Assembly (NCBI GenBank): GCA_035905735.1
Contig: JAMIGL010000023.1
Coordinates: forward strand, 1 to 28,293
Length of the DNA: 28,293 nucleotides
Source: Minisyncoccota bacterium
GTDB taxonomy: Bacteria > Patescibacteriota > Minisyncoccia > Phycocordibacterales > UBA9973
Direction of reading: 5' to 3'
Of this stretch, positions 5,378 through 7,750 are shown one piece after another; positions within the stretch are counted from its first letter, which is position 1, and every line of letters starts with the position of its first letter. The notes below the pieces were generated by a model that saw only the letters and a program-made list of their open reading frames with translations, ran no database searches and was not told the origin of the DNA. Position numbers and translations under genes: made by a program.

Positions 5378-5866
5378 TTATTCAAGAGAGAATTTGAGAC
5401 CTTCTGTGATGCCGAGCTCTTGTGCCTGCCCCGCTGCGATTTCAAGTACATATTTCACCGGAGAAGGCGGGTACCAAACGTCGGGATAACTTTCCGGGGT
5501 GACAAATAAGGCACTACCGACAACCCTCATCGAGTCATCAATCCATATGATATCAATAGGGTATGCCATGTCTTTCATCCAAAAACCATGAAATGCGGAT
5601 GTTTCAAATACAAATAACTTGCCAGTACCCGTCGGAAGTGACAAGGTGCCAGAAAGTCCTACAATACGCTCCTCCTCTGTATCTGCAATACTAACAGGGA
5701 TAATTACTTCGCCATTTAACATAATGAACCTTCCCGACTCAGGTCTATCAACCTTCGCTGGGTCAACCTTACCTTTGGTAAGAACGGCAAAGAGCACTCC
5801 AAAGAGTGCTCCTGTGACCAGTAGTATGAAAATTGCAGTACGAATGCGTGTATCCTTGATAACCAT
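5378..5866 (-). CDS. DUF192 family protein with an N-terminal membrane anchor
   Basis: IADTEEERIVGLSG...GKLFVF...FWMKDMAYPIDIIWID...KYVLEIAAG matches the DUF192/COG1430 pattern. Confidence 0.88.
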   Translation of the reverse strand: MVIKDTRIRTAIFILLVTGALFGVLFAVLTKGKVDPAKVDRPESGRFIMLNGEVIIPVSIADTEEERIVGLSGTLSLPTGTGKLFVFETSAFHGFWMKDMAYPIDIIWIDDSMRVVGSALFVTPESYPDVWYPPSPVKYVLEIAAGQAQELGITEGLKFSLE

Positions 5867-5867
5867 G

Positions 5868-5905
5868 TTATTTGAGCAAAATCAGCTTTATTTTGCCTCG
5901 ATCTA
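5868..5905 (-). other. 3' arm of the pre-16S processing stem
   Basis: UAGAUCGAGGCAAAAUAAAGCUGAUUUU (5878-5905) is complementary to leader 7705-7732, and CUCAAAUAA (5868-5876) to leader 7742-7750. Confidence 0.75.
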
Positions 5906-6065
5906 CCAATCATATGCTCTATAGATACACACGATTGGATTTGCGCACGCTAACCCTTGTGCAGGGAGTGAATATTGAGTCATTCACCACAACCTTTTTC
6001 GATTTACATCGAATCAACCGTATCAATCTATATAATATCCCGAAGGATACGATATAGACATCTCA

Positions 6066-7680
6066 ATTTGAGTTAATCCACGACCAGCTTCCGCTAGCCG
6101 TGCCTTGTTACGACTTATTCCCTGTCACCGATCTTACCGTAGTCCCTCCGTATGGAGAGCCTTCGGGTACTACCGGCTCCCTTGAATTGACGGGCGGTGA
6201 GTACAAGACTCGAGAACGTATTCACCGCAGTTTGGCTGACCTGCGATTACTAGCGATTCCAGCTTCAAGAAGTCGAGTTGCAGACTTCTATCCGAACTAG
6301 GGCTATCTTTGAGGGTTGGCTCCGGATCGCTCCATTGCATCCCATTGTAATAACCATTGTATTATGTGTGTGGCCCCAGATATCAAAGGGACATGCTGAC
6401 CTGGCGTCATCCTCTCCTTCCTCCCAGCCCGAAAATCACAATCAACAAGATCCTCTGTGGAATGAAAAAATATAAATACTTTTTCATTCCACAGAAGACC
6501 CCATTGCGATCTTTGGGCTGGGCGGTCTCGCCTGACACTTGTAACAGACGACGAGGGTTGCGCTCGTTAGCCCACTTAAGGGAACAGTTCAAACCACGAG
6601 CTGACGACGGCCATGCATCACCTGCTCAGATGTCTTGCGAGGGCCTAGTTTCTTAGGATTTCATCTGAGCTTCAAATCTGGGTAAGGTTCTTCGTTTACC
6701 TACGAATTAAACCACATAATCCACCGCTTGTGCGAGTCCCCGTCTATTCCTTTGAGTTTTAATCTTGCGATCGTACTTCCCAGGCGCTTCACTTAACGCG
6801 TTAGCTTCGCCTCTCAGAGGGTCGATACTCCGAAAAGCTAGTGAAGATCGTTTAGGGCGTGGACTACTGGGGTATCTAATCCCATTCGCTACCCACGCTT
6901 TCGTGTTTCAGTGTCAGTGCTGTGCCAGTAAGCTGCCTTCGCTTTTGGTGTTCCCCATGATATCAACGGATTTCACCCCTACACCATGAGTTCCGCTTAC
7001 CTCTCACATACTCTAGCATTGCCGTTTCGCCCGCGTTTCCCAGGTTAAGCCCGGGGCTTTCACAGACGACTAACAACGCAACCTACACACCCTTTACGCC
7101 CAATAATTCCGGATAACGCTCGGGGCCTCTGTATTACCGCTCCTGCTGGCACAGAGTTAGGAGCCCCTTATTCATGAGGTACCGTCAATATACTTCTTCC
7201 CTCATAAAAGACCTTTACGTGGCGAACCACTTCATCAATCACGCGGCGTCGCTCCATCAGACTTTCGTCCATTGTGGAAGATTCTCGACTGCAGCCACCC
7301 GTAGGTGTATGGGCCGTGTCTCAGTCCCATCGGTGGGGGTCAGGCTCTCACCTCCCCTAGGCGTCATAGCCTTGGTAGTCCATTACACTACCAACTAGCT
7401 GATACCCCGCAGGCTGTTTCTCAAGCGATAAATCTTTACCCCGGAGGGTCCATCGCGTATTAGTGCACCTTTCGGTGCATTATTCGCGACTTGAGAGTAC
7501 ATACCTACGTGTTACTACCTCGTCTGCCACTATTCAGCAAACCACATCCACAAATCGTCTTGTCTCTTGTATTGCTACTTGAAACTCAACTTTTCGCTTC
7601 AGTGGACTGAACCGTTCGACTTGCATGCCTTATCCACGCCGCCAGCGTTCATCCTGAGCTAGGATCAAACTCTTCTTAAA
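6066..7680 (-). rRNA. rrs: 16S rRNA gene, unlinked (no tRNA or 23S downstream), ~1615 nt, with insertions in h6 (V1) and h40
   Basis: AGAGTTTGATCCTAGCTCAG at the 5' end; GTGCCAGCAGGAGCGGTAA; ATTAGATACCCCAGTAGTCC; GTACTCACCGCCCGTC; AAGTCGTAACAAGG; h45 with a GGAA loop. Ends were placed by E. coli-equivalent numbering. Confidence 0.98.
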
Positions 7681-7704
7681 AGACACTTATAAATAAGTAT
7701 GTCT

Positions 7705-7750
7705 TAGACCGAGGCAAAAGAAAGATGACTTTCAGTTGCCTCTCAAATAA
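7705..7750 (-). other. 5' arm of the pre-16S processing stem
   Basis: Pairs with 5868-5905: about 28 bp with two mismatches, plus a separate 9-bp helix. Confidence 0.75.

What the first reader, a model, noticed from the sequence alone, without database searches (positions are those of the whole stretch)
5864..7750. Stand-alone 16S operon whose processing stem ends one base before the DUF192 start codon
Seen: no tRNA or 23S follows the 16S. Leader 7705-7732 pairs with trailer 5878-5905, and leader UUAUUUGAG pairs with CUCAAAUAA, which is followed by C-AUG of DUF192. Leader AACCUGUU could extend the helix over the AUG itself. I found no promoter-like -10 before DUF192, and the first terminator is at 5241-5280. 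Inference: the DUF192 mRNA is a by-product of pre-16S maturation (RNase III is encoded in this window), so its translation would be coupled to ribosome synthesis. That also hints at a ribosome- or growth-linked role for this uncharacterised family.
Basis: partly seen in the sequence, partly recalled or inferred. Interest (0 to 1): 0.65.

Follow-up and report, generated by a model that had tools for sequence, protein, structure and literature searches.

The report
Protein gene embedded in 16S processing helix
In this tiny uncultured bacterium and its whole genus, the start codon and first ~30 codons of a small membrane-protein gene also serve as the far strand of the stem that excises 16S rRNA and as a terminator-like hairpin, so the gene most likely rides on ribosomal RNA transcription.

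Summary
The 16S gene (6066-7680, minus) stands alone; the 23S lies on another contig. It has one strong promoter (7833-7860) and a leader/trailer stem at 7705-7732: 5878-5905.

The stem does not stop before the DUF192 AUG (5866). In minimum-energy folds it continues to about 5822, roughly codon 15.

A conserved hairpin with a U-tract follows at 5786-5819, inside the codons for the membrane anchor. It occupies the place where 18 of 20 sister genera have the 16S terminator.

All 32 genus genomes with a DUF192 hit have it directly after the 16S trailer. The stem shows compensatory changes, and codon choice is biased towards pairing.

The window has no promoter-like site before DUF192, although about six relatives do. 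The genome has no anti-SD or SD signal and often uses leaderless starts.

Best reading (about 0.7): DUF192 is transcribed from the 16S promoter, damped by the helix and the hairpin, and probably released by RNase III. A ribosome-related function for DUF192 is not supported.

The earlier scan had noted the anti-SD loss and the leaderless promoters on this same window.

The parts
7871..7899 (-). Intrinsic terminator of the upstream gene; it insulates the 16S unit from upstream transcription
   Evidence: Terminator scan: 12-bp stem plus T-run
7833..7860 (-). 16S promoter, TTGACT-16-TATAAT (11 of 12 consensus positions)
   Evidence: The same promoter (10-11 of 12) was found upstream of the 16S in all 13 genus loci with enough upstream sequence
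7793..7807 (-). boxA-like element of the rRNA leader. Its 3' half is part of the distal helix
   Evidence: Conserved string in genus leaders. The likeness to rrn boxA rests on my own knowledge and was not tested
7742..7806 (-). Leader strand of the distal helix. It pairs with 5822-5877, i.e. the DUF192 start codon and codons 1-15
   Evidence: Minimum-energy folds; own-versus-foreign leader test; synonymous recoding test
7705..7732 (-). Leader strand of the core processing stem
   Evidence: compensatory changes
6066..7680 (-). 16S rRNA. The 3' tail lacks the CCUCC anti-SD
   Evidence: Rfam RF00177, 1354 bits; 3'-end alignment
5906..6065 (-). Structured 160-nt trailer spacer with conserved hairpins. 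It holds no promoter-like or terminator-like site and no Rfam family
5878..5905 (-). Trailer strand of the core processing stem. Inferred RNase III target
5822..5877 (-). Trailer strand of the distal helix: 11 nt before the AUG, the AUG (5866-5864) and about 15 codons
5378..5866 (-). DUF192 gene, 162 aa, with an N-terminal membrane anchor and a DUF192 domain at residues 57-158
   Evidence: Pfam PF02643, E 1.2e-24; PDB relatives 3m7a and 3pjy
5786..5819 (-). Conserved hairpin (core 5790-5813, 10 bp, tetraloop) followed by a short U-tract, inside the anchor-coding codons. Candidate 16S terminator or attenuator
   Evidence: dG -17.8 kcal/mol; an equivalent hairpin is present in all 27 genus loci where the core stem was located, and in the two direct-fusion genera. 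More stable than synonymous recodings: z -3.4 here, mean -4.7
5241..5281 (-). Intrinsic terminator after DUF192, followed by the -10 box of the nrdB-like gene
   Evidence: Fold -19.6 kcal/mol, z -5.0
12068..12463 (-). RNase III gene (coordinates of the domain match; the ORF is 233 aa)
   Evidence: PF14622, E 6.6e-35

Best explanation
The 16S gene forms its own transcription unit. It is driven by a single strong sigma-70 promoter with a boxA-like leader.

As in other bacteria, the leader pairs with the trailer to form the long stem from which pre-16S RNA is cut. In this genus the DUF192 gene has moved into the 3' end of that unit.
- Its start codon and about the first 15 codons form the 3' strand of the distal half of the stem.
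- The codons for its membrane anchor form the hairpin with a U-tract that, in sister genera, is the 16S terminator.

DUF192 therefore has no promoter of its own in this genome. It is made only from 16S transcripts that read through the internal hairpin.

While the leader is paired, the start codon is hidden. Cleavage of the core stem by RNase III, followed by loss of the leader fragment, would free a message with almost no leader. That suits a genome with no Shine-Dalgarno system and frequent leaderless starts.

Shown here: the anatomy, its conservation, covariation, the codon bias towards pairing, the lack of a promoter-like site, and the lack of SD signal.

Inferred: read-through, the position of the RNase III cut, and translation of the processed RNA.
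For: 1. Stand-alone 16S with one strong promoter and an upstream terminator.
2. All 32 genus genomes with a DUF192 hit have it directly after the 16S trailer. In none of 13 other families of the order do the two lie together.
3. Single-sequence minimum-energy folds of leader plus trailer recover a helix that runs over the start codon into the ORF in every genus member with both flanks. The window has 75 intermolecular pairs.
4. The core stem shows compensatory double changes at 8 or more positions where all 13 sequences pair. The triplet after the core, which is the AUG or GUG in 13 of 27 loci, is paired with the leader.
5. A genome's own leader pairs with its own DUF192 5' region better than foreign leaders do: -52 versus -35 kcal/mol, and no permutation in 20,000 reached the observed value.
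6. The native codons pair better than synonymous recodings in 9 of 12 genomes, mean z -2.3.
7. The in-ORF hairpin with U-tract is present in all 27 genus loci and in both direct-fusion sister genera. It is more stable than synonymous recodings, mean z -4.7.
8. By my reading of the sequences printed, 18 of 20 sister genera have a canonical terminator right after the stem.
9. The window has no promoter-like site in the trailer or before the AUG.
10. RNase III is encoded in the genome.
11. The genome has no SD signal: 7% of starts versus a 10% background. A -10-like box peaks 6-8 nt before the ATG in about 25% of genes.
Against: There are no transcript data, so read-through of the hairpin and the position of the RNase III cut are inferred.

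About six relatives carry a well-placed extended -10 module 6-9 nt before their displaced start codon. An own promoter is therefore possible in the genus, and a weak, atypical one cannot be excluded in the window.

The distal helix may itself be an RNase III substrate, in which case cleavage would cut the ORF.

Three of 12 genomes show no codon bias towards pairing.

The hairpin was chosen as the best in each region before it was compared with the recodings, which inflates its z-scores.

In the window the U-tract after the hairpin is short (three U, then GCC), so its termination strength is uncertain.
Confidence: 0.7

Rival explanations
1. DUF192 has its own promoter, probably of the leaderless type, overlapping the 3' strand of the stem. 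The overlap with the 16S unit would be genome compaction only, and 16S transcripts would end at the in-ORF hairpin without contributing to DUF192 expression.
For: Relatives L004, L006/L007, L023, L032 and L012 carry TGn-TAnnnT modules 6-9 nt before the start codon, and some have a -35-like hexamer inside the stem. Such modules are common in this genome. Two sister genera have a terminator and a promoter-like sequence between the 16S and DUF192.
Against: The window and its closest relative L016 have no such module. Thirteen of 27 loci have the start codon directly at the end of the core strand, leaving no room for a -10 box. Leader-to-codon covariation shows that rRNA transcripts reach into the ORF anyway.
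Confidence: 0.17
2. The transcript is shared, but processing silences the gene. RNase III or another nuclease cuts the distal helix inside the first 15 codons, so processed pre-16S RNA never yields a translatable DUF192 message. Only rare unprocessed or differently folded transcripts would be translated.
For: In the window the distal helix includes about 21 pairs interrupted by two single-base bulges, over codons 6-13. That is long enough to be a candidate RNase III substrate. The very strong rRNA promoter calls for heavy damping of a membrane-protein gene.
Against: The ORF is intact in 32 of 32 genus genomes with a hit, so it is expressed in some way. The core stem is the longest near-perfect duplex and the part best conserved in sequence across the order, so it is the more likely primary cleavage site.
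Confidence: 0.1
3. The complementarity beyond the core stem and the in-ORF hairpin are by-products of an AU- and U-rich membrane-anchor coding sequence and of shared ancestry. They would have no role at the RNA level.
For: Anchor segments rich in Phe and Leu give U-rich RNA. Related sequences inflate apparent conservation. Three of 12 genomes show no codon bias.
Against: The partners change together although the protein sequences differ. The own-versus-foreign leader test was significant. Synonymous recoding removes most of the stability. The two sister genera whose DUF192 has a separate terminator and a promoter-like sequence upstream have only weaker hairpins without a U-tract in the same coding region.
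Confidence: 0.03

Closest known systems
Bacterial pre-16S processing stem cleaved by RNase III (E. coli rrn operons; unlinked 16S units of Helicobacter pylori, PMC6582327)
   Same: A leader and a trailer flank the 16S and form a long duplex. RNase III is encoded. A boxA-like element lies in the leader. The 16S is unlinked from the 23S-5S, as in H. pylori and many symbionts (PMC7761764).
   Different: Here the 3' strand of the duplex is largely protein-coding: a start codon plus about 15 codons. A word search of the H. pylori paper found no mention of co-transcription or of a downstream gene, and my literature searches found no such case.
rRNA transcription units that contain ORFs (Buchnera aphidicola 16S unit, as cited in PMC7761764)
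   Same: A 16S gene unlinked from the 23S and described as sharing an operon with protein-coding ORFs.
   Different: I know that case only from a one-line citation. No overlap of an ORF with the processing stem or the terminator, and no covariation with the leader, is described there.
tRNA punctuation of polycistronic transcripts (animal mitochondria; own knowledge) and the tRNA-Thr/RNase R junction noted earlier in this same window (e1-5299350, not tested by me)
   Same: Excision of a stable RNA would create the 5' end of an adjacent message that has little or no leader.
   Different: The stable RNA here is the 16S. The cutting enzyme would be RNase III acting on a duplex, and the duplex includes the coding sequence itself.
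RNase III-dependent activation or repression of mRNAs by cleavage of 5' stems (phage T7 early mRNAs, lambda N, rnc and pnp leaders in E. coli; own knowledge)
   Same: A duplex that covers a translation start is cut by RNase III, and expression changes.
   Different: Those stems are local to the mRNA leader. Here the other strand lies 1.9 kb upstream, on the far side of a whole 16S rRNA.
Intragenic intrinsic terminators and attenuators (own knowledge)
   Same: A hairpin with a U-tract early in a transcription unit limits how much polymerase reaches the body of the gene.
   Different: The element here is in frame inside a membrane-anchor coding segment. It appears to be the positional equivalent of the rRNA unit's own terminator.

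Membership tests
Bacterial 16S rRNA processing stem (RNase III substrate) | Leader and trailer sequences flanking the mature 16S form an extended duplex | tested here: met
   28-position core at 7705-7732: 5878-5905, plus a distal extension
Bacterial 16S rRNA processing stem (RNase III substrate) | The duplex is kept by compensatory changes in relatives | tested here: met
   double changes at 8 or more fully populated positions in 13 sequences. The stem is also visible in other genera and families
Bacterial 16S rRNA processing stem (RNase III substrate) | RNase III is present in the genome | tested here: met
   PF14622, E 6.6e-35, at window 12068-12463
Bacterial 16S rRNA processing stem (RNase III substrate) | RNase III actually cleaves within the stem | not testable with these tools
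   Needs in vitro cleavage or 5'/3'-end mapping
Unlinked (stand-alone) 16S rRNA unit | No 23S, 5S or tRNA on the same transcription unit; own promoter and terminator | tested here: met
Intrinsic (Rho-independent) terminator, for the hairpin at 5786-5819 | G+C-rich hairpin directly followed by a U-tract | tested here: inconclusive
   The hairpin is strong (-17.8 kcal/mol), but in the window only three U follow the stem. Most relatives have five U followed by G and C. The rule-based scan did not call it
Intrinsic (Rho-independent) terminator, for the hairpin at 5786-5819 | Transcripts end at the U-tract | not testable with these tools
   Needs Term-seq or 3' RACE
DUF192 (PF02643) | Match to the family profile above the curated cut-off | tested here: met
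   86.7 bits against a cut-off of 27, residues 57-158
Leaderless mRNA produced from its own promoter (TGn-TAnnnT, 6-8 nt, start codon) | A -10 box 6-8 nt upstream of the start codon | tested here: not met
   The window has none before 5866. It is met in about six relatives
rrn antitermination leader (boxA) | A boxA sequence in the leader that is bound by NusB/NusE | tested here: inconclusive
A conserved boxA-like string lies at 7793-7807 and in relatives. The consensus is recalled from memory and binding is untested.

The most novel reading that the evidence does not exclude
Thirty codons of a membrane-protein gene do double duty. They form the distal strand of the pre-16S processing helix and the 16S terminator or attenuator. 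RNase III excision of the 16S then creates a 5'-monophosphate message with little or no leader. This would be 'rRNA punctuation': a way to make translatable mRNA in bacteria whose ribosomes have lost the anti-Shine-Dalgarno sequence. Output of the gene would be tied to rRNA synthesis, yet damped by orders of magnitude.
Probability: 0.4. Interest if true: 0.8.

Novelty: new variant of a known kind. Interest (0 to 1): 0.68.

Why it matters
rRNA processing stems are treated as non-coding, and rRNA units as free of protein genes. Here a coding sequence covaries with an rRNA leader 1.9 kb away across a whole genus. This is a clear case of overlapping protein and RNA-structure constraints.

Sister genera show what look like successive evolutionary states: stem, terminator, promoter and gene; then stem, gene and an internal hairpin; then the same with a newly gained leaderless promoter.

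The case also gives a testable handle on three questions in uncultured, genome-reduced bacteria:
- how SD-less ribosomes choose start codons;
- how a gene is expressed at a low level from the strongest promoter in the cell;
- how stand-alone 16S units are terminated and matured.

For annotation, start codons next to rRNA genes in these lineages should not be trimmed away.

Tried and rejected
1. A promoter inside the 160-nt trailer. The conserved loop string with a TATAGA core, about 20 nt before the core strand, looked like a -10 box. I rejected this because it is the loop of a conserved hairpin. The same element also occurs in a sister genus (L051) where a terminator follows the stem and my tblastn found no DUF192.

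2. A hidden anti-SD further downstream, with an insertion in the 16S tail. Rejected: the Rfam alignment ends cleanly at 6066. The whole order has the altered tail, and the genome lacks SD motifs.

3. An alternative start at Met49, which would give a domain-only protein translated downstream of the hairpin. Rejected: the anchor segment is conserved as protein in the genus and in sister genera, and no promoter-like site precedes Met49.

4. RNAduplex on the full 300-nt flanks over-extends the duplex. I used it only for relative comparisons. The anatomy comes from the minimum-energy folds.

5. Terminators after DUF192 in relatives are variable and often weak, so I do not use them as evidence.

6. 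Rfam found no known family in the trailer or at the junction.

7. Literature searches for a protein gene co-transcribed with the 16S, or for an mRNA start inside a processing stem, found nothing comparable. The library is incomplete, so this does not prove novelty.

8. None of the listed DUF192 papers has the term in its title or abstract, and I did not read them.

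Full report
CONTEXT

The window is contig C23 of a 387-kb, 70.7%-complete, 46-contig genome. Relatives have genomes of 0.4-0.9 Mb. This is the profile of an uncultured, genome-reduced (CPR/Patescibacteria-type) bacterium.

Rfam places the 16S rRNA at 6066-7680 on the minus strand, RNase P RNA at 1783-2104, and one tRNA far away at 19190-19262. The 23S rRNA is on another contig, C46, with about 4 kb of other sequence in front of it. 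The 16S is therefore unlinked.

The ORF at 5378-5866 (-) is a DUF192 protein (PF02643, E 1.2e-24, domain at residues 57-158). It has a hydrophobic N-terminal segment. Its only relatives of solved structure are two uncharacterised proteins, one of them named a signal-peptide protein.

CHECKING THE OBSERVATION

On the minus strand the order of features is as follows.
- The terminator of the upstream gene, 7899-7871.
- A near-consensus promoter, TTGACT-16-TATAAT, at 7860-7833.
- A leader of about 150 nt, then the 16S, then a 160-nt trailer.
- The strand at 5905-5878, which pairs with leader 7732-7705 (28 positions, 2 mismatches, 2 G-U pairs).

The scan found no promoter-like or terminator-like site on this strand between 6066 and 5867. 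RNase III is at about 12068-12463. The terminator at 5241-5281 is real. All the observations stand.

I folded the leader plus the distal trailer and the 5' end of DUF192, one sequence at a time. In the window, the leader-trailer helix runs through the AUG to about 5822, with 75 intermolecular pairs. Leader 7796-7774 pairs with codons 6-13 (5849-5830). The 3' half of a conserved boxA-like string (7807-7793) takes part in this pairing.

The same continuation appears in every genus member for which both flanks were available.

Immediately after the helix lies a 10-bp hairpin with a tetraloop (core 5813-5790, extended 5819-5786, -17.8 kcal/mol), followed by a U-tract. It sits in the codons of the membrane anchor.

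An equivalent hairpin is present in all 27 genus loci where the core stem could be located. The arms differ in sequence but still pair. In most loci five U follow directly; the window has only three.

COMPARATIVE EVIDENCE

In the first sample of 36 genus genomes, 32 have a DUF192 hit. In all 32 it lies directly downstream of the 16S trailer, or at a contig start where the 16S is cut off. In a wider sample, 44 of 50 genus genomes hold the trailer sequence.

In 13 other families of the same order, the 16S and DUF192 are never adjacent.

I fetched the DNA after the 16S for 20 other genera of the same family. The counts below come from my reading of those printed sequences.
- Eighteen genera have the stem followed within a few tens of bases by a canonical terminator.
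- In two of these (g38, g45) the terminator is followed by a promoter-like sequence and then DUF192. In one (g44) DUF192 lies 1.2 kb further on.
- Two genera (g51, g58) have DUF192 directly after the stem with no terminator between. In both, a hairpin with a U-tract lies early in the ORF.

So all stages exist: stem, terminator, promoter and gene; stem with the gene fused on and the hairpin now inside the ORF; and, within the genus, variants with a new promoter-like module.

TESTS FOR SELECTION AT THE RNA LEVEL

(a) Core stem, 13 sequences. Compensatory double changes occur at 8 or more positions where all sequences pair. The triplet that follows the conserved end of the core strand is paired with the leader.

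(b) Distal helix, own versus foreign leader. Each genome's own leader pairs with its own DUF192 5' region better than leaders of other genomes do: mean -52 versus -35 kcal/mol. The own leader ranked first in 8 of 12 genomes, and no permutation in 20,000 reached the observed mean.

(c) Distal helix, synonymous recoding. Recoding the first 20 codons weakens the pairing in 9 of 12 genomes (z -2.0 to -4.4, mean -2.3). Three genomes show no bias.

(d) In-ORF hairpin. Synonymous recoding removes most of its stability in 13 of 13 loci (mean z -4.7). These z-scores are inflated, because I picked the best native hairpin before making the comparison.

(e) Control. The two genera whose DUF192 has a separate terminator and a promoter-like sequence upstream have only weaker hairpins, without a U-tract, in the same coding region.

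Pairing between an rRNA leader and codons can only be selected if both are on one RNA. This is the strongest available evidence that 16S transcripts run into DUF192.

START CODONS AND PROMOTERS

In 13 of 27 genus loci the AUG or GUG follows the last base of the conserved core strand directly. In four more it lies 8-10 nt further on. None of these 17 has a -10-like box.

About six loci have the start displaced by 16-19 nt (79 nt in one). Exactly these carry an extended -10 module 6-9 nt before the start (L004, L006/L007, L023, L032, L012). Some also have a -35-like hexamer inside the stem.

The window and its nearest relative L016 have the start at +19 and no such module.

An own promoter is therefore a real alternative in part of the genus, but not in the window.

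TRANSLATION SETTING

The 16S tail lacks CCUCC, as it does in the whole order. Loss of the anti-SD in a Parcubacteria subgroup is published (PMC9297842).

In this genome, G is depleted at -12 to -4 before start codons. SD-like words occur before 7% of starts, against 10% in random 17-mers. A TAnnnT box peaks 6-8 nt before the ATG, in about 25% of 287 ORFs against about 2% per position elsewhere. Leaderless messages are therefore a normal mode here.

From my own knowledge: RNase III leaves 5'-monophosphate ends, and leaderless translation in E. coli has been reported to need a 5' phosphate. I did not check this.

MOST LIKELY MECHANISM

Polymerase starts at the 16S promoter, and the boxA-like leader recruits Nus factors (inferred). 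When the trailer and the first DUF192 codons emerge, they pair with the leader and hide the start codon.

Most transcripts probably end at the in-ORF hairpin, which is the positional equivalent of the 16S terminator of sister genera. A fraction reads through to the terminator at 5241-5281.

RNase III cuts the core stem. This releases pre-16S RNA and leaves a DUF192 RNA whose 5' end lies at or a few bases before the AUG. Once the leader fragment is lost, this RNA can be translated without SD.

The gene would thus be tied to rRNA transcription but heavily damped. I give about 0.7 to transcription from the rrs promoter, and about 0.4 to the full 'processing makes the message' version.

RIVALS

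- An own promoter (0.17).
- Cleavage that silences the message rather than activating it (0.10).
- No role at the RNA level (0.03).

COMPARISON WITH KNOWN SYSTEMS

The stem itself is the ordinary bacterial pre-16S processing stem. Unlinked 16S units matured by RNase III are known in H. pylori (PMC6582327). A Buchnera 16S unit with ORFs is cited in PMC7761764.

What I did not find in the literature is a stem whose 3' strand is the start and first codons of a protein gene, with covariation between the leader and the codons, plus a terminator-like hairpin in frame. I class it as a new variant of a known kind.

DUF192 FUNCTION

The link to the 16S is confined to a few genera of one family, with independent transcription signals in two of them. 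The protein looks membrane-anchored or exported. A ribosome-related role is therefore not supported. The linkage is better read as an accident of genome compaction that was later built upon.

LIMITS

- All evidence is computational.
- Only 13 loci have both flanks.
- The relatives are not independent of each other.
- The energy comparisons use RNAduplex, which ignores intramolecular competition.
- The identity of boxA and the strength of the terminator are unverified.

Noticed in passing
window 6061-6080 (16S 3' tail); L004-L022: The 16S 3' tail lacks the CCUCC anti-SD in this genome and in every relative of the order examined. In its place is a small hairpin whose arms covary between families. 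The genome shows no SD enrichment before genes. Loss of the anti-SD in a Parcubacteria subgroup is published (PMC9297842).
   Followed up: yes
whole genome G000 (287 ORFs); window genes: A TAnnnT box peaks 6-8 nt upstream of ATG start codons, in about 25% of ORFs against about 2% per position elsewhere. T is enriched at position -1. Leaderless mRNAs appear to be a main mode of expression.
   Followed up: partly
window 5734-5761 (-); L012 1481-1508; L015 1370-1396; G000 C28 4880-4908 (L061 581-609, minus strand): A 28-nt element (conserved 9-mer, variable covarying hairpin, conserved 8-mer) lies in frame inside the window's DUF192 ORF. In two relatives it lies upstream of the DUF192 start codon. 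It also lies antisense in the spacer between an ORF ending at L061 571 and the tmRNA gene, where a degenerate second copy sits next to it. Its nature is unknown (mini mobile element, or a protein or RNA binding site).
   Followed up: partly
window 5906-6065 (-): The 160-nt trailer between the 16S and the stem holds several hairpins kept by compensatory changes across the genus. One has a conserved palindromic loop. Its counterpart in sister genera carries a loop that resembles the 16S 3' tail. The function is unknown.
   Followed up: partly
window 7742-7750 versus 6066-6075 and 5868-5876: The leader 9-mer can pair either with the 16S 3' tail or with the copy just before the DUF192 AUG. Only the window and L016 have the second partner. 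A possible conformational switch; not analysed.
   Followed up: no
window 6451-6498 (-): A 20-bp AU-rich hairpin inside the 16S was picked up by the terminator scan. It looks like an intervening-sequence-type insertion; the 16S is 1615 nt against a 1533-position model. Relatives have 16S genes of up to about 2.9 kb.
   Followed up: no
window 3921-5192 (-): The small subunit of ribonucleotide reductase carries an N-terminal ATP-cone domain (PF03477 plus PF00268).
   Followed up: no
G025 contigs C15 and C24 (L036, L010): One genus genome holds two different copies of the 16S-trailer-DUF192 junction. The genome has 4% estimated contamination, so this may be two strains in one bin rather than two rRNA units.
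   Followed up: no
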